Shown here piece after piece: positions 2,716 to 42,102 of a stretch of DNA of 64,000 nucleotides; positions within the stretch are counted from its first letter, which is position 1; each line of letters opens with the position of its first letter. The translations under genes were made by a program, and so were the position numbers. The notes below the pieces were generated by a model. That model made no database searches, was not told where the DNA came from, and saw only the letters and a program-made list of their open reading frames with translations. The stretch lies in contig LSNL01000006.1 of NCBI GenBank assembly GCA_003056145.1, positions 6,119 to 70,118 of the forward strand, read 5' to 3'. The DNA comes from Parcubacteria group bacterium M10-OD1-1 (GTDB lineage: Bacteria > Patescibacteriota > Minisyncoccia > Moranbacterales > UBA2206).

Positions 2716-2820
2716 TCGTTCTTAAATGTAAAATTGAATATAACTGGTTTTTATCCAAACTCTATGTCCATATTGTAACAATATCTTGTATGTTATGCAA
2801 ACTTTTGTTATTCTTTGGAT

Positions 2821-3636
2821 ATGAGCGATATTTTGGAGAAAACCGACAGATTATTGCGATTACGCAACTATTCTCCCAAAACCCGTAAAGCATACTTGCT
2901 TTACATTAAAGATTATATCGGGTTTGCTAAAAAATCTGGAATCAAAGATAAACAAAAAGCAATTGAGGATTTTTTGCTTGATAAACAGAAAGGCAAACAG
3001 TCCCCACAAACAATCAATCTTGCACTTAGTGCTGTGAAATTTTTGTATGTAGAGGTTTTAAAGAATCCTCAAAAGATTGATCTAAAATTTGCTAAACGAA
3101 GCAAGAAACTGCCGATTGTATTGTCGCGAGCAGAAATTGAGCGGATTATTGAAGTGACTGATAACCCAAAGTATAAACTCATGATATCCCTCGGGTATGC
3201 CTGTGGTATGAGAGTTAGCGAAGTGACAAAACTTCAAGTGGCAGATTTAGACATTGCTGAACTTGTTGTACATATTAAGGGTGCAAAAGGTAAGAAAGAC
3301 AGAATCAGTGTATTACCAGAAAAACTACAAGACGATTTGAGAAATATTATCGCTGGTAAAAAAGTGTATGATTTTATTTTTCCTTCCAATCGTGGAGGTA
3401 ATCTCACAACGACATCTTTGCAAAAAATGTTTCGTAAAAGTTTGGCAAAGGCACAAATTAGCAAGCCTGCAACCTTCCATTCTTTGCGCCATTCATTCGC
3501 TACACATTTGCTGGAAAACGGAACAGATGTGCGATATGTACAAGAATTGCTAGGGCACTCGAATATTCGCACTACGCAAATTTATACACAAGTTACAAAT
3601 CCCAAATTAAAGAATATTAAAAGTCCGCTAAAATAA
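2821..3636 (+). CDS. tyrosine site-specific recombinase / phage-integrase family (XerC/D-like)
   Basis: N-terminal SAM-like core-binding region; C-terminal catalytic region with R...HSLRHSFATHLL...GH...TQIYTQV (R-H-R-H-Y). Likely start is ATG 2821; the ORF track opens at TTG 2815. Confidence 0.85.
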   Translation: MSDILEKTDRLLRLRNYSPKTRKAYLLYIKDYIGFAKKSGIKDKQKAIEDFLLDKQKGKQSPQTINLALSAVKFLYVEVLKNPQKIDLKFAKRSKKLPIVLSRAEIERIIEVTDNPKYKLMISLGYACGMRVSEVTKLQVADLDIAELVVHIKGAKGKKDRISVLPEKLQDDLRNIIAGKKVYDFIFPSNRGGNLTTTSLQKMFRKSLAKAQISKPATFHSLRHSFATHLLENGTDVRYVQELLGHSNIRTTQIYTQVTNPKLKNIKSPLK

Positions 3637-3641
3637 ATCTT

Positions 3642-4553
3642 ATGGAAAATATTTCCGACATTAAAAAAAAATACCGAGACAAATTAGATTCATTAGATCT
3701 AGAAGTTTTAATTGCACACGCAATTGGAAAATCGCGAGAAGTCGTACTCACTCACCCTGAATATATACTAACACCAAATCAAAAATTAAGAATTAATAAC
3801 TATATAGAGAGAAGAATTAAAAACGAACCTGTTGCCTATATTACCAAACATAAGGAATTTTTTGGATTGGATTTTACAGTCACTCCAAACACCCTTATTC
3901 CCCGTCCAGAAACAGAATTGCTTGTAGAAAAAACATTGGAAGAAATTTTAACATTTCACAATCAATCTTCAATAATCAATATCATTGATGTCGGCACTGG
4001 AAGTGGAAATATAATCATTTCAATTGTCGATAACCTAGCTTCTAATTTTCGCAAAAATTATAGATGTAAAGATAAAAATAAAAAAATTAAATTTTATGGA
4101 ATTGATATTTCAAAAGATGCATTACAAGTTGCGAAACAAAATGCAAAAAAAAATAATTTACAAAGTGAAATAAAATTTATTGAATCCAACTTATTGGAAT
4201 ATTTTTTAAAAAATAAAATTTATAAAGTTCATCATCTTATTCTTACTGCAAACCTCCCCTATTTATCCAAAGATATTTATGAGTCATCTATGGTTGATGT
4301 AAAAAAATATGAACCTAAGTCTGCACTCATTAGCAACCAGAATGGACTAAGTCATTATGCAAAACTTATCAGTGAAATAAAAAAACTTAAAAAATATTCT
4401 AAAATAAATTCTATTTCTTGCTTTATAGAAATAAGCCCTGAGCAAAAAAACGAGATTAAAAAAATAATACTAAATTATTTTCCGAAAGGTAAACTAAACT
4501 TTAAAAAAGATTTGTCTGGTAAATGTCGTGTAGTGATTATTAAAATAAATTAA
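3642..4553 (+). CDS. prmC: release-factor glutamine N5-methyltransferase PrmC/HemK
   Basis: FFGLDFTVTPNTLIPRPETE, SAM motif IIDVGTGSGNI, and the (N/D)PPY-type motif as TANLPY. Confidence 0.8.
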   Translation: MENISDIKKKYRDKLDSLDLEVLIAHAIGKSREVVLTHPEYILTPNQKLRINNYIERRIKNEPVAYITKHKEFFGLDFTVTPNTLIPRPETELLVEKTLEEILTFHNQSSIINIIDVGTGSGNIIISIVDNLASNFRKNYRCKDKNKKIKFYGIDISKDALQVAKQNAKKNNLQSEIKFIESNLLEYFLKNKIYKVHHLILTANLPYLSKDIYESSMVDVKKYEPKSALISNQNGLSHYAKLISEIKKLKKYSKINSISCFIEISPEQKNEIKKIILNYFPKGKLNFKKDLSGKCRVVIIKIN

Positions 4554-4595
4554 TCTTAGCTTAGTTAAAATCATTAGGTTGGAATTACCTAGAAT

Positions 4596-4631
4596 AAAGC
4601 AAAAACCGTAAAATTTTACGGTTTTTGCTTT
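4596..4631. terminator. bidirectional rho-independent terminator
   Basis: Perfect palindrome AAAGCAAAAACCGTAAAATTTTACGGTTTTTGCTTT with A/T runs on both sides. Lies between convergent prmC (+) and the lysine-rich gene (-). Confidence 0.7.
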
Positions 4632-4709
4632 ATTTAATAGTAACTTTGTACTAAAAATAATCTTCAACTTAATAATTTTATTATTTCATTGAATCAACTT
4701 TCTAAAAGA

Positions 4710-4937
4710 TTATTTTTTTCGTCTTTTAGCAGTAGTTCTTTTAGCTGGTTTTCTTTTTGTAGTTTTCTTTACAGTTTTTTTAGCTGGTTTTCTTTTTGTA
4801 GTTTTCTTTACAGTTTTTTTAGCTGGTTTTCTTTTTGTAGTTTTCTTTACAACTTTTTTAGCTGGTTTTCTTCTTGTAGTTTTCTTTACAACTTTTTTAG
4901 CTGGTTTTCTTTTTGTAGTTTTCTTTTTAGTTGCCAT
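4710..4937 (-). CDS. lysine-rich histone-H1-like / Hc-like small basic DNA-binding protein (repeat K-R-K-P-A-K-K-x-V-K-K-T-T)
   Basis: Minus-strand ORF of 13-aa basic repeats. Strong SD (GAGGTGA) sits 8 nt upstream of ATG 4937 (MATKKK...). The plus-strand ORF 4689-5036 is a low-complexity mirror artefact. Confidence 0.6.
   Translation of the reverse strand: MATKKKTTKRKPAKKVVKKTTRRKPAKKVVKKTTKRKPAKKTVKKTTKRKPAKKTVKKTTKRKPAKRTTAKRRKK
4735..4930. repeat. about five tandem copies of a 39-nt unit (tagctggttttctttttgtagttttctttacagttttttt)
   Basis: Directly visible tandem periodicity. It encodes the 13-aa basic repeat of the histone-like protein. Confidence 0.85.
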
Positions 4938-5399
4938 AATTATCACCTCGCTTTCTATTTTTATTTTTTTAAACTGAGCTTTGTATTCTCTATTAAGAAT
5001 ATTTTTGTTTTTGTTTTCGACCTATTGTTTATTTAAATTATATCTTATTTGTATTTTATTGCAATAGAAAAATTATCCACAGTTCAAAAAAAGAAACTAA
5101 AGAAATTATTCTTAAAAAAATTTCAGAGAAAAAATATTCTTCAGCTATTTTAATGATTTTTATTTTATATTTTATATTTAATTACTAAAAATTTTAGCTA
5201 CTGCTCAAAAGAACTTTTTATATTAAAACCTAATCTTAATGTTTGTCTAGTTGACGACTTGGCTAACTTTGATAAAATTCACTATAAGAAGCCTCAAAGG
5301 CAATCGCTTCAACGCAAGCACATTAAAAATTCCGTTTTAAACGGCTCAGCTTTCATAGTTGAGAATAATAAACTAAAGATAGAAAGGAAGGTGAAAAAT

Positions 5400-6059
5400 A
5401 TGGAAAATAATGAAGAAAAAAACAAGGATAATTCGAAACAAGAAACAGCAACAACTGATGAAATAACTCGAGGTAATTGGAAAAACTGGCTTCAAGATAA
5501 TTTAAGAATTATTATCAGTGTCCTAATCGTAGTCTTAATCGCTGGAGGAATTTATTCTTATTCTAAAAGATCTGCAACACCAGCTAATAAAGAAGTTACT
5601 CAAAAAAGTGAACACCAGAAAGACAATATCAAAAAAGATGAGAACAATAATACAATCAAAGAAAAAAAGCAAGAAAAGAAATCTACCACTACGAAGAAAA
5701 ATACTGCCGTGAAAAAATCTTCTATTCAGAAGACATCTTCAATTACGACTAGCCAAGAAACTGAGCAATCATTCATTGAAGTAGCTGGTAAAGGAGATAG
5801 TCAAACTACCTTAGCCAGAGCAGCTTTGGCACATTATCTAGAAAAAAATTCTGACTCCAGTTTGACAGCTGAACATAAAATTTATATTGAAGATTATTTA
5901 CGAAAAGCTGTTCATCATCAAGGAAGAATTTACATCGGAACCTCTGTGGAATTTTCTAAAAACTTACTTAAACAAGCCATTGCTAAATCTAAGACTCTGA
6001 CTGCTCATCAATTAAAAAATTTACACCAGTATGCTGTTCGCGTACCATCATTATCCTAA
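5400..6059 (+). CDS. hypothetical membrane-anchored protein (single TM, Lys/Thr-rich linker, conserved C-terminal domain)
   Basis: The ORF track opens at TTG 5259; ATG 5400 preceded by AGGAAGGTG is the more plausible start. TM helix IIISVLIVVLIAGGIY. Confidence 0.45.
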   Translation: MENNEEKNKDNSKQETATTDEITRGNWKNWLQDNLRIIISVLIVVLIAGGIYSYSKRSATPANKEVTQKSEHQKDNIKKDENNNTIKEKKQEKKSTTTKKNTAVKKSSIQKTSSITTSQETEQSFIEVAGKGDSQTTLARAALAHYLEKNSDSSLTAEHKIYIEDYLRKAVHHQGRIYIGTSVEFSKNLLKQAIAKSKTLTAHQLKNLHQYAVRVPSLS

Positions 6060-39875: not shown

Positions 39876-42050
39876 TTACTTAACTTTTTCAAATTTTACT
39901 TTAGACAATTTAATAGCGCATTTAGGACAGGTCCAGTGTTCTCCAGTTAAGTATCCATGCTCTGGGCAAATACTAAAAGTAGGCGTGAATGTGAAATAAG
40001 GGAGACGATAATTATTAGCAATAGTTTTAACTAATTTTTTTACAACCTCGATATCATTAATCTTTTCTCCCAAAAATCCATGCAACACTGTCCCTCCAGT
40101 ATATTTAGTTTGTAAATCATCTTGTAAATCAAGTGCTTCAAAAATATCAGATGTAAAGCCAACTGGCAATTGCGAAGAATTAGTATAATATGGAGCTGCT
40201 CCATTTTTTTTCACCGATTCATCATTAGCAAATTTAATATCTGGATATTTTTTTTGATCTGATTTAGCTAAACGATAAGTAGTTCCTTCGGCAGGAGTAG
40301 CTTCCAAATTATACATATTGTCTGTTTCTTTTTGATACTGAATCATTCTTTTTCTCATATGATTTAAAATCTTCTGAGCTAACTTATTGCCTTTTTTATT
40401 AGCAATACCTACCCCAATAAAATTTTCTAACGCTTCATTCATTCCCAATAAACCAATAGTAGAAAAATGATTCCCCCAATAATTTCCTCTTCTAGCTTTT
40501 ATATCCTTTAAATAATATCGTGAATAAGGATACAAACCTATCTCCGTTAATTTTTCAATAAAAACTCTTTTAGCTTCCAAACTTTCTTTAGCTAAATCCA
40601 TTAGATAATCTAATTTTTGAAAAAAATCTTTTTCGTCCTTAGCTATATAGCCTAGTCTTGGCATATTGATAGTTACCACTCCAATAGAACCAGTCATTGG
40701 ATTAGCTCCAAACAATCCACCCCCTCTTTTATTCAGCTCTCTGTTATCTAAACGAAGCCGACAGCACATACTCCTAGCATCGTCAGGACTCATATCAGAA
40801 TTAACAAAATTAGCAAAATAAGGCATTCCATATTTAGCAGTCATCTCCCAAATCGGATTAAGAGCTGGGTCATTCCAATTAAAATCTTTGGTGATATTGT
40901 ACGTAGGAATTGGAAAAGTAAAAACCCTATTTTGTGCATCACCCTCGCTCATAACTTCCGCGAAAGCCTTATTTATCATATTCATCTCTTTTTGAAATTG
41001 ACTATATTTTTGCTTTAATGGTTTCCCTCCAATAATAATAGATTGATCCTTATAATTAGATGGAACTTGCATATCTAAGGTGATATTAGAAAAAGGAGTT
41101 TGAAAACCAACCCGAGTTGGAACATTCATATTAAAAATAAATTCTTGTAAGGCTTGCTTTACTTCTTCTTGTTTTAATTTGTCAAAATGAACAAAAGGAG
41201 CTAATAGAGTATCAAAATTAGAAAAAGCTTGAGCACCGTTAGCCTCTCCCTGAAGAGTATAAATAAAATTAGTTATTTGTCCTAGAGCACTACGTAAATG
41301 TTTTGGAGGGGCTGAATGAACCTTTCCAGGAACGCCACCAAATCCTTTTATTAATAAATCATGCAAGTCCCAACCGCAACAATAAGCTGCCACCATTTGT
41401 AAATCATGAACATGTAAATCTCCTCCTTCGTGTGCTCGACGAATATCCTTAGTGTACACTTTATTCATCCAATATTTTGAACTTACCGCCGAAGAAATAA
41501 AATTATTAAGACCTTGTAAGGAAAAGCCCATATTAGAGTTTTCTTTTACTTTCCAATCTACTTCTTTAATATAATCATCTACCAAACTAACAGCTTCTTT
41601 TAAAACATCTTTTGTTTCCCTAACTTTTCTGTGTTGCTCACGATAAAGAATATAACCCTTAGCTGTCTTTTCAAAATCTAAAACCATTAAAATCTTTTCT
41701 ACCATATCTTGAATTTCTTCAATTTCTGGTACATAACCTTTATGATAATTTTTATTGAGCCATTGAATTATTTTGACAGTAATTTTTTCTGCTTCTTTTT
41801 GTCCGCCCTCCCCAGCATCATTCAAAGCTTTAAAAACTGCTTTAGTGATTTTTTCAGCTTTAAAGGGAACAGCATACCCACTTCGCTTAATAACTTTCTT
41901 AATCTTACTTTTAATCTTTTTCATCTCTTTTTTTGAAACTTTTAAATTAGCTATCTTAACCTTACTCTGATTTTTCTTTAAACTTTTTTTAACTGGAGTA
42001 ACTTTATTTTTAGCTTTTCCTCTTTTTAGATGTTTGCTTTTCGCTGTCAT
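39876..42050 (-). CDS. nrdD: class III anaerobic ribonucleoside-triphosphate reductase NrdD, C-terminally truncated (ends after its Zn ribbon; no glycyl-radical loop)
   Basis: Lys-rich N-terminal extension, ATP-cone (VIKRSGYAVPFKAEKITKAVFKA), NrdD barrel with catalytic Cys region, C-terminal CPEHG...CPKC Zn ribbon followed by only 13 residues. Confidence 0.85.
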   Translation of the reverse strand: MTAKSKHLKRGKAKNKVTPVKKSLKKNQSKVKIANLKVSKKEMKKIKSKIKKVIKRSGYAVPFKAEKITKAVFKALNDAGEGGQKEAEKITVKIIQWLNKNYHKGYVPEIEEIQDMVEKILMVLDFEKTAKGYILYREQHRKVRETKDVLKEAVSLVDDYIKEVDWKVKENSNMGFSLQGLNNFISSAVSSKYWMNKVYTKDIRRAHEGGDLHVHDLQMVAAYCCGWDLHDLLIKGFGGVPGKVHSAPPKHLRSALGQITNFIYTLQGEANGAQAFSNFDTLLAPFVHFDKLKQEEVKQALQEFIFNMNVPTRVGFQTPFSNITLDMQVPSNYKDQSIIIGGKPLKQKYSQFQKEMNMINKAFAEVMSEGDAQNRVFTFPIPTYNITKDFNWNDPALNPIWEMTAKYGMPYFANFVNSDMSPDDARSMCCRLRLDNRELNKRGGGLFGANPMTGSIGVVTINMPRLGYIAKDEKDFFQKLDYLMDLAKESLEAKRVFIEKLTEIGLYPYSRYYLKDIKARRGNYWGNHFSTIGLLGMNEALENFIGVGIANKKGNKLAQKILNHMRKRMIQYQKETDNMYNLEATPAEGTTYRLAKSDQKKYPDIKFANDESVKKNGAAPYYTNSSQLPVGFTSDIFEALDLQDDLQTKYTGGTVLHGFLGEKINDIEVVKKLVKTIANNYRLPYFTFTPTFSICPEHGYLTGEHWTCPKCAIKLSKVKFEKVK

Positions 42051-42102
42051 ATTTTTTTCTTTTTTATTATTTATATTAAACTATTATTTACTTTTTTATT
42101 TT

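What the first reader, a model, noticed from the sequence alone, without database searches (positions are those of the whole stretch)
4710..4937. Histone-H1/Hc-like lysine-rich protein built from five 39-nt tandem repeats
The minus strand encodes MATKKKTTKRKPAKKVVKKTT(R/K)RKPAKK... with a strong SD (GAGGTGA) and a shared bidirectional terminator. The nucleotide sequence is an almost perfect 39-nt tandem array. It resembles eukaryotic H1 C-terminal tails, chlamydial Hc1/Hc2 and AlgP KPAA-repeat proteins. Tandem coding repeats are slippage-prone, so copy number probably varies between cells or strains, which could modulate nucleoid compaction.
Basis: partly seen in the sequence, partly recalled or inferred. 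Interest (0 to 1): 0.5.

Follow-up and report, generated by a model that had tools for sequence, protein, structure and literature searches.

The report
Tiny lysine-rich polycation gene in CPR bacterium
A real gene with a very strong ribosome-binding site, in an uncultivated Moranbacteria-like bacterium, encodes a 75-residue, +40-charged, probably unfolded protein made almost entirely of five copies of a 13-residue lysine-rich unit; relatives carry 22-56-residue versions at the same spot, so it is a fast-evolving micro-protein of the known 'histone-H1-tail-like' kind, most likely a nucleic-acid binder.

Summary
Window 4734-4926 is a 39-nt tandem array (4.9 copies, 96% match, no indels). It lies inside a minus-strand ORF (4710-4937, 75 aa: 32 K, 9 R, no acidic or aromatic residues, net +40).

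The minus strand is the coding strand:
- Codon-usage score is +0.84 bit/codon, against -0.43 for the plus-strand ORF.
- Its SD (GAGGTGAT) is the longest in the 64-kb window.
- It has its own 19-bp terminator hairpin.
- Six syntenic relatives (PrmC 52-55% identical, Moranbacteria-like CPR) carry a small K-rich gene beside prmC and the same membrane-protein gene. Each has a conserved AGGTG SD, an ATGGCA start and its own terminator. Lengths are 22, 31, 31, 43, 55 and 56 aa.

The window's copy is the longest and the only one with a near-perfect DNA array, which points to a recent in-frame expansion.

It fails every membership test tried (Hc2, Burkholderia/Bordetella BpH1-type, AlgP KPAA, Hc1, linker-histone globular domain). 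It resembles them in composition only.

Copy-number variation within the species could not be tested, because every short-read assembly breaks inside the array.

DNA/nucleoid binding is inferred, not shown. Verdict: a new member of a known, compositionally defined kind, of moderate to low interest.

The parts
4710..4937 (-). Gene for a 75-aa lysine-rich micro-protein (8.75 kDa, pI about 12, net charge +40.5; 55% K+R, the rest T/A/V/P)
   Evidence: ORF and translation; composition; codon-usage score +0.84 bit/codon versus 0.46+-0.13 for the window's long ORFs; positional orthologs; gene callers picked this strand for the partial copies at contig ends.
4734..4926 (-). 39-nt (13-codon) tandem array, 4.9 copies; unit KK[V/T]VKKTT[K/R]RKPA, built from xxKK / xxKRK / PAKK sub-units
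   Evidence: TRF: 96% matches, no indels; unit-by-unit listing; longest exact internal repeat 74 nt.
4942..4949 (-). Shine-Dalgarno sequence GAGGTGAT, 4 nt upstream of the ATG
   Evidence: Sequence. It is the longest SD complementarity in the window: 8 nt, versus at most 7 for the 47 ORFs of >=150 aa. AGGTG is invariant in all 7 orthologs.
5037..5064 (-). Promoter-like site TTGCAA-16-TATAAT (10 of 12 matches), about 100 nt upstream of the ATG
   Evidence: Consensus scan. Weak evidence: 6 sites found in the region versus 4.6 expected in shuffles.
4593..4634 (.). Perfect 19-bp hairpin with T-rich flanks on both strands; probable bidirectional terminator shared with the convergent prmC
   Evidence: Fold z = -6.3. 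Equivalent hairpins follow every ortholog, and the stem motif AAGCAAAAACC...GGTTTTTGC recurs in L244 and L251.
3642..4553 (+). prmC (release-factor glutamine methyltransferase), the convergent neighbour used as synteny anchor
   Evidence: Pfam PrmC_N + Methyltransf_31; homologs.
5400..6059 (+). Single-pass membrane protein of unknown function (219-aa start; an annotated TTG start at 5259 gives 266 aa), transcribed divergently from the K-rich gene; the pairing is conserved in relatives
   Evidence: orthologs next to the K-rich gene in L244, L249, L251 (the pair is inverted as a block) and L253.

Best explanation
This is a genuine protein-coding gene with a very strong ribosome-binding site and its own terminator. 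Its product is a 75-residue polycation with no predicted secondary structure.

It belongs to a clade-specific family of micro-proteins (22-75 aa, all starting M-A-x-K, about 50-60% K/R, the rest A/V/T/P). The family sits beside prmC and a conserved membrane-protein gene in Moranbacteria-like CPR bacteria.

The most likely mode of action is non-specific electrostatic binding to nucleic acid, chiefly the AT-rich chromosome. That would neutralise charge and compact the nucleoid, as the lysine-rich tails of histone H1, chlamydial Hc2, Bordetella BpH1 and AlgP do.

The window's copy became the longest family member through recent in-frame amplification of a 39-nt unit, by replication slippage or unequal recombination.

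Shown: gene reality, coding strand, positional conservation, length plasticity between species, composition, and lack of a predicted fold. Inferred: high expression, the binding partner (DNA), the compaction role, and the amplification mechanism.
For: - Array and ORF are as described.
- Coding strand: codon score +0.84 versus -0.43 bit/codon. The SD is the longest in the window.
- A terminator hairpin is present and conserved in the orthologs.
- Six relatives carry a K-rich gene of 22-56 aa at the syntenic position, with invariant AGGTG and ATGGCA.
- A strict scan (ATG start, >=45% K/R, no D/E, SD present) finds exactly one such gene in the 64-kb window and one in each syntenic relative. It finds none in the 15 more distant loci or in L245/L246.
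- Net charge +40.5, no acidic or aromatic residues.
- AlphaFold predicts no secondary structure; pTM 0.14.
- Whole-gene self-identity at a 39-nt shift is 0.87. Orthologs reach 0.57-0.69 and 53 compositional analogs mostly 0.45-0.6 (up to 0.76), so the expansion is recent.
- Comparable K-rich repeat proteins bind DNA and vary in length through repeat gain and loss (PMC2848022; PMC9239181).
Against: - There is no expression, proteomic or binding data for this gene or any ortholog.
- There is no detectable homology to any characterised DNA-binding protein.
- The syntenic relative L012 lacks the gene (127-nt spacer), and so does the Moraniibacteriota locus L245 within the 20 kb read, where synteny differs. 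It is therefore dispensable or replaceable.
- A polycation of this kind would bind RNA, ribosomes, polyphosphate or acidic membranes just as readily as DNA.
Confidence: 0.55

Rival explanations
1. It is an RNA- or ribosome-associated polycation, for example an RNA chaperone, a translation repressor or a ribosome-stabilising factor, and not a nucleoid protein.
For: The composition suits RNA as well as DNA. Hc2 is reported to bind RNA and repress translation (PMC2848022). Lysine-rich extensions are common on translation-related and other proteins in this group: L31 tails in L014/L016/L017 and the NrdD N-terminus in this window. The gene lies next to the translation-termination genes prfA and prmC. 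The weak PDB matches are eukaryotic ribosomal protein eL27, but at E>3, so they are not significant.
Against: There is no homology to any ribosomal protein or RNA chaperone. The gene is convergent with prmC and has its own terminator, so it is not co-transcribed with the translation genes. Length varies 3.4-fold between orthologs, which is unusual for a stoichiometric ribosome component.
Confidence: 0.2
2. It binds polyphosphate or another cellular polyanion, organising granules or tethering them to the chromosome as AlgP and PhaF do.
For: AlgP's lysine-rich repeat tail localises to polyP granules and is needed for their spacing (PMC9239181). The charge density here is even higher.
Against: There are no KPAA repeats and no AlgP- or PhaF-like N-terminal domain. 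No polyP or PHA genes were seen near the locus. Whether this organism makes polyP is unknown.
Confidence: 0.1
3. It is an exported or host-directed polycationic peptide (antimicrobial, cell-penetrating or adhesive) used by an episymbiotic CPR cell. The neighbouring membrane protein may be involved.
For: Its size and charge resemble cell-penetrating or antimicrobial peptides. It is conserved in a divergent pairing with a single-pass membrane protein gene.
Against: There is no signal peptide or hydrophobic segment at all; Met is the only L/I/M/F/W/C residue. No transporter or maturation genes are adjacent.
Confidence: 0.05
4. It is not a protein-coding gene on the minus strand. Either it is a non-coding minisatellite, or the plus-strand F/S-rich ORF (4689-5036) is the one translated.
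For: The plus-strand ORF is open for 115 codons. Antisense frames of poly-Lys coding DNA stay open by composition alone.
Against: The plus ORF has a TTG start, no SD, and a codon score of -0.43 bit/codon. Its equivalent frame carries a stop in L249. The K-rich frame keeps its ATG, a strong SD and a terminator in seven lineages while the DNA diverges.
Confidence: 0.03

Closest known systems
Chlamydial histone H1-like protein Hc2 (HctB; Pfam PF07382, NCBIfam NF038052)
   Same: It is lysine-rich and low-complexity, with no acidic residues in the repeat region. It is built from short units of 2-3 basic plus A/V/T/P residues, nested inside a longer tandem DNA repeat whose gain and loss changes protein length in frame (PMC2848022).
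   Different: Hc2 is 165-237 aa, with pentamers nested in 36-aa (108-bp) elements and conserved non-repeat N- and C-terminal flanks. The protein here is 75 aa, has 4-5-4-residue sub-units in a 13-aa (39-bp) element, has no flanks and is 55% K/R. There is no HMM match even at E<=10. The phylum is unrelated.
Bordetella BpH1 and Burkholderia/Ralstonia Hc2-like proteins (NCBIfam NF038053)
   Same: They are stand-alone proteins made almost wholly of lysine-rich repeats. They show size polymorphism through repeat number, and BpH1 is dispensable (PMC2848022). That parallels the absence of this gene from L012.
   Different: BpH1 is 182-206 aa, A/K/P-rich and from high-GC Betaproteobacteria. There is no HMM hit for the window protein. 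Only sub-threshold hits were found to some metagenomic analogs (31.7 bits versus a cut-off of 80).
AlgP / PhaF C-terminal KPAA-repeat domains (Pseudomonas)
   Same: They are disordered tandem repeats rich in K, P and A with histone-H1-tail composition. Peptides bind DNA, and the repeat region is a mutational hot spot (PMC9239181).
   Different: AlgP is 352 aa, with a 124-aa helical N-terminal domain and 4-residue KPAA units. The protein here has no KPAA, no folded domain and 13-residue units.
C-terminal tail of eukaryotic linker histone H1
   Same: The composition (K, A, P, T, V) is similar, the tail is intrinsically disordered, and it is a polycation.
   Different: There is no winged-helix globular domain (no Pfam hit) and no S/TPKK motif. 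The protein is a fraction of the size.
Small stand-alone K/R-rich ORFs of 49-133 aa in environmental metagenomes (e.g. L183, L134, L200; the high-GC family MA[KR]ATTKRKPAKK...)
   Same: They share the exact TTKRKPAKK motif, often at the N-terminus after MAxx, lack acidic residues, are similar in size and have clear SD sequences.
   Different: Their genomic contexts are unrelated; none has the window's flanking genes. Their DNA is diverged and not a near-perfect array. The similarity may be convergent low-complexity sequence, so homology cannot be established.

Membership tests
Hc2 / HctB (PF07382, NF038052) | Match to the curated HMM above its cut-off | tested here: not met
   No hit to PF07382 or NF038052 at E<=1 or, for Pfam, at E<=10.
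Hc2 / HctB (PF07382, NF038052) | 165-237 aa, with conserved non-repeat N- and C-terminal flanks around 36-aa repeat elements made of pentamers (PMC2848022) | tested here: not met
   75 aa; the whole ORF is repeat; the unit is 13 aa, made of 4+5+4 residues.
Hc2 / HctB (PF07382, NF038052) | Evenly spaced pairs of basic residues separated by A/V/T/P, with no acidic residues in the repeat region | tested here: met
   K/R occur in runs of two or three (five at the C-terminus), each run starting every 4-5 residues. The other residues are only T, A, V and P. There is no D or E.
Hc2 / HctB (PF07382, NF038052) | Binds and condenses DNA | not testable with these tools
   Needs EMSA or heterologous expression.
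Burkholderia/Bordetella H1-like protein (NF038053, BpH1) | Match to the NF038053 HMM (cut-off 80 bits); about 180-206 aa | tested here: not met
   No hit for the window protein; length 75 aa.
AlgP / PhaF C-terminal domain | Tandem KPAA (or KPVA, KTAAA) tetrapeptide repeats attached to an N-terminal helical domain (PMC9239181) | tested here: not met
   No KPAA motifs; no additional domain.
Hc1 (HctA) | Conserved N-terminal dimerisation domain followed by a lysine-rich C-terminus (PMC2848022) | tested here: not met
   No non-repeat N-terminal region; no Pfam hit.
Eukaryotic linker histone H1/H5 | Winged-helix globular domain (Pfam Linker_histone) and S/TPKK motifs in the tail | tested here: not met
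   No Pfam hit; no [ST]P[KR][KR] motifs.
Clade-specific K-rich micro-protein beside prmC (family defined here) | Located between prmC and the single-pass membrane-protein / DUF192 / GT4 gene block | tested here: met
   Seen in the window and in L244, L247/L248, L249/L250, L251, L252 and L253.
Clade-specific K-rich micro-protein beside prmC (family defined here) | AGGTG-containing SD, ATGGCA start (M-A-x-K), >=45% K/R, no acidic residues, own hairpin terminator | tested here: met

The most novel reading that the evidence does not exclude
These 22-75-aa polycations could be the main chromosome-neutralising and compacting proteins of ultra-small Moranbacteria-like CPR cells. They would be functional 'bacterial protamines' that standard annotation and trypsin-based proteomics largely miss. 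Their length, and so their compaction strength, would be tuned within populations by in-frame gain and loss of a 39-nt minisatellite, making the gene a contingency locus for nucleoid state. The conserved, divergently transcribed membrane protein might anchor the complex to the envelope.
Probability: 0.12. Interest if true: 0.6.

Novelty: new member of a known kind. Interest (0 to 1): 0.33.

Why it matters
CPR/Patescibacteria have tiny cells and reduced genomes, and little is known about how they package DNA. A conserved micro-protein that is 55% lysine/arginine and has an exceptionally strong ribosome-binding site is a plausible, cheaply testable candidate nucleoid or RNA organiser. The peptides are short enough to synthesise.

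There is also a practical point. Two of the six orthologs had not been called by the gene finder. The full-length window protein, and ten compositionally similar ORFs that I read from metagenome contigs, are absent from a 15-billion-protein collection. HMMER-based searches return essentially nothing useful. This class may therefore be under-recorded.

The biology itself is not a surprise. Lysine-rich repeat proteins with length polymorphism are well known in Chlamydia, Bordetella, Burkholderia and Pseudomonas.

Tried and rejected
- Word-seeded HMMER search with the 75-aa protein: 8000 candidates, none at E<=1e-3. This is uninformative for a low-complexity query.
- Exhaustive phmmer against 1.84 billion representatives: 16 hits, none below 1e-10. 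Most were unrelated proteins that merely have a 13-residue period. Only P0010 and P0013 are K-rich, and both are long multi-domain proteins.
- Exact-sequence look-ups of the protein and of ten analogs: all absent, so no source names could be obtained.
- Broad KPAKK...KPAKK DNA pattern in viral contigs: 97 stretches, in the lysine-rich tails of many unrelated proteins including giant-virus MAGs. The motif is generic and was rejected as evidence of homology.
- Copy number in other assemblies of the same organism: six or more contigs end inside the array or at the terminator palindrome. L243's end is homopolymer-ridden junk. L133 is probably a chimera with an IS630-like gene. No count was possible.
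- Flanking proteins against the 119 metagenome hits: no orthologous locus among them.
- PDB sequence search: nothing significant.
- Literature searches for the assembly and run accessions, and for CPR plus histone H1: nothing.
- Part of the integrase/Bro-N island upstream of prmC: considered and rejected. prmC lies between them, and relatives without the integrase still carry the gene.

Full report
**1. Observation**

The array and the ORF are exactly as described.
- Tandem Repeats Finder gives window 4734-4926 as period 39, 4.9 copies, 96% matches, no indels.
- The minus strand carries ATG at 4937 and TAA ending at 4710. It encodes MATKKKTTKRKPAKKVVKKTTRRKPAKKVVKKTTKRKPAKKTVKKTTKRKPAKKTVKKTTKRKPAKRTTAKRRKK.
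- In 39-nt register the start codon falls inside unit 1, and the last 10 codons look like a decayed unit. The gene therefore consists of repeat and nothing else.
- The units differ only at GTT/ACT (V/T) and AAA/AGA (K/R).
- The SD GAGGTGAT (4942-4949) lies 4 nt before the ATG. The GTG at 4946 that the ORF lister used as a start is part of the SD.
- A perfect 19-bp hairpin (4593-4634) lies between the convergent prmC (3642-4553) and this gene. Its fold z-score is -6.3.

**2. Coding strand**

- A codon-usage log-likelihood built from the window's 31 long ORFs gives +0.84 bit/codon for the K-rich frame. Long ORFs score 0.46 +- 0.13.
- The 115-codon plus-strand F/S-rich ORF scores -0.43. It has a TTG start and no SD.
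- The 8-nt SD complementarity is the longest in the window. The 47 ORFs of >=150 aa reach at most 7 nt, even when the best of all candidate starts is taken.
- In public assemblies the gene caller chose the minus strand for the truncated copies at contig ends.

**3. Organism and strains**

- The window is about 30% GC.
- PrmC's nearest relatives among 5.8 billion proteins are only 55% identical or less. Sources name them Candidatus Moranbacteria, Moraniibacteriota or Parcubacteria. The organism is therefore a Moranbacteria-like CPR bacterium with no sampled sister species.
- Near-identical strains occur in GCA_003056095.1, in three VAP* metagenome assemblies and in four Logan runs.
- Every one of those contigs stops inside the array or at the terminator palindrome. 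The 74-nt exact internal repeat explains this.
- One contig end is junk, and one short contig is probably chimeric.
- The only strain difference seen is K versus R in unit 2 (L001).
- Copy number within the species therefore remains untested. The five-copy count rests on the window's own assembly, plus the concordant order of units in L001.

**4. Relatives**

This is the decisive evidence. I fetched contigs for the closest PrmC homologs. Six syntenic loci hold a small lysine-rich gene beside prmC and the same single-pass membrane-protein / DUF192 / GT4 / RmuC gene block:

| Locus | Length | Sequence |
|---|---|---|
| L244 | 43 aa | MAAKKKAVKKVAKKKVAKKAVKKVAKKKVAKKVTKKKATKKRK |
| L249/L250 | 55 aa | MAVKKVAKKAAKKTVKK... 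|
| L252 | 56 aa | MAVKKAKKKVAKKVVKK... |
| L251 | 31 aa | MAAKKKAAKKKVVKKAKKKVAKKKVAKKKKK |
| L253 | 31 aa (not called by the gene finder) | MAAKRKAAKKTTKKKTAKKTTKKKATKKKKK |
| L247/L248 | 22 aa (not called; opposite orientation) | MAKKKAAKKKVAKKAKKTKKRM |

- All have AGGTG in the SD and an ATGGCA start, both invariant in the DNA alignment.
- The window, L251 and L253 share the upstream motif ATAGAAAG.GAGGTGA.
- Each gene has its own downstream hairpin with a T-run. The stem motif AAGCAAAAACC...GGTTTTTGC recurs in the window, L244 and L251.
- The K-rich gene and the membrane-protein gene are divergent neighbours in the window, L244, L249 and L253. In L251 the pair is inverted as a block.
- The antisense frame equivalent to the window's plus-strand ORF is broken by a stop in L249.
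- A strict scan finds exactly one such gene in the 64-kb window and one in each syntenic relative. It finds none in the 15 more distant loci or in L245/L246.
- The gene is missing from L012, where a 127-nt spacer separates prmC from the membrane-protein gene.
- It is also missing from the sampled region of a 1.27-Mb Moraniibacteriota genome whose synteny differs.

**5. What is special about the window's copy**

It is the longest, and it is the only one whose DNA is a near-perfect array. Its whole-gene self-identity at a 39-nt shift is 0.87. The orthologs reach 0.57-0.69, and the 53 metagenomic analogs mostly 0.45-0.6, up to 0.76. That pattern fits a recent in-frame amplification of a 39-nt unit. 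The mechanism (slippage or unequal recombination) is inferred, not shown.

**6. The protein**

- It is 8.75 kDa, with 32 K, 9 R, 15 T, 7 A, 6 V, 5 P and 1 M. Net charge is +40.5 and pI about 12.
- It has no acidic, aromatic or hydrophobic-core residues, and no signal peptide.
- AlphaFold gives no secondary structure and pTM 0.14.
- Basic residues come in runs of two or three, each run starting every 4-5 residues. The sub-units are VVKK, TTKRK and PAKK. This resembles the charge spacing described for the Hc2 pentamers.

**7. Comparison with known families**

- Pfam and NCBIfam give no hit to Hc2 (PF07382, NF038052), to the Burkholderia/Bordetella H1-like model (NF038053), to Hc1 or to linker histone.
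- There are no KPAA, S/TPKK or AT-hook motifs.
- There is no significant PDB match.
- Some metagenomic analogs get only sub-threshold Hc2 or NF038053 scores.
- The protein therefore fails membership of every named family. It shares their composition, their repeat-driven length plasticity and, by inference, their mode of action (PMC2848022; PMC9239181).

**8. Wider picture**

My own estimate of the chance expectation is only a handful.
- Most matches fall in stand-alone, acid-free K/R-rich ORFs of 49-133 aa, on contigs of 29-70% GC. Many have clear SDs, and the motif often sits at the N-terminus.
- None shares the window's gene context.
- The broader KPAKK motif is generic.
- These hits show that the compositional class is widespread. 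Homology with the window gene cannot be established for such low-complexity sequence.

**9. Verdict**

This is a real gene on the minus strand, conserved by position and evolving fast. It encodes a domain-less polycationic micro-protein and has an exceptionally strong ribosome-binding site.
- The most probable function is non-specific binding of nucleic acid, with the nucleoid as the leading candidate (confidence about 0.55).
- RNA or ribosome binding and polyphosphate binding are live alternatives.
- It is a new member of the known, compositionally defined kind of bacterial H1-tail-like lysine-rich repeat proteins.
The family names were resemblance only. The copy-number and compaction claims remain to be tested.

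Noticed in passing
window 39879-42080 (-): The anaerobic ribonucleotide reductase NrdD (ATP-cone + NRDD domains) carries a lysine-rich N-terminal extension of about 60 aa ahead of the ATP-cone (MTAKSKHLKRGKAKNKVTPVKKSLKK...).
   Followed up: partly
L014 1177-1533, L016 1025-1453, L017 1001-1423: Ribosomal protein L31 in three Parcubacteria/Patescibacteria MAGs has a long lysine-rich C-terminal tail (AAKKPKKQDKKQAKGKKADKKK...). Lysine-rich low-complexity extensions seem common in this group.
   Followed up: no
window 2815-3636 (+) and L244 108-968: A XerC/D-type tyrosine recombinase sits immediately upstream of prmC, where seven of the nine related loci examined have prfA. In the window it is preceded by a Bro-N protein and small ORFs, which suggests an integrated element broke the prfA-prmC linkage.
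   Followed up: partly
window 5259/5400-6059 (+); L244 2631-3290; L249 11936-12598; L251 5009-5584; L253 5563-6192; L012 5129-5791: A conserved single-pass membrane protein of unknown function has a variable low-complexity linker (acidic in L012, K/T-rich in the window) and a conserved C-terminal domain of about 90 aa. It is the divergent neighbour of the K-rich gene. Its start is annotated inconsistently (266 versus 219 aa). The 219-aa ATG has an AAGGTGA SD.
   Followed up: partly
L133 (VAPL010572493.1) 1330-1512: Two perfect copies of the 39-nt unit are fused to GC-richer sequence that contains the start of an IS630-like transposase. This is probably a chimeric metagenome contig and not a paralog.
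   Followed up: partly
L243 (LSNQ01000007.1) 1-870: The contig end upstream of the first repeat unit is homopolymer-rich, low-quality sequence. This is an assembly artefact in GCA_003056095.1.
   Followed up: yes
L124-L242, e.g. L146 4578-4943, L125 394-681, L150 3410-3736: A large high-GC (0.51-0.66) family of 78-127-aa proteins starts MA[KR]ATTKRKPAKK or MVKATTKRKPAKK, with a conserved upstream GGGGAC/GGGAAC SD-like motif. The N-terminal TTKRKPAKK may be a real conserved signature of stand-alone H1-like proteins in soil and peat bacteria.
   Followed up: partly
L247 11257-11325 (+), L253 5023-5118 (-): Two of the six orthologous micro-genes (22 and 31 aa) were not called by the gene finder in the public records. 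Ten analogous K-rich ORFs that I read from metagenome contigs are absent from the 15-billion-protein collection, so this class may be under-recorded.
   Followed up: partly
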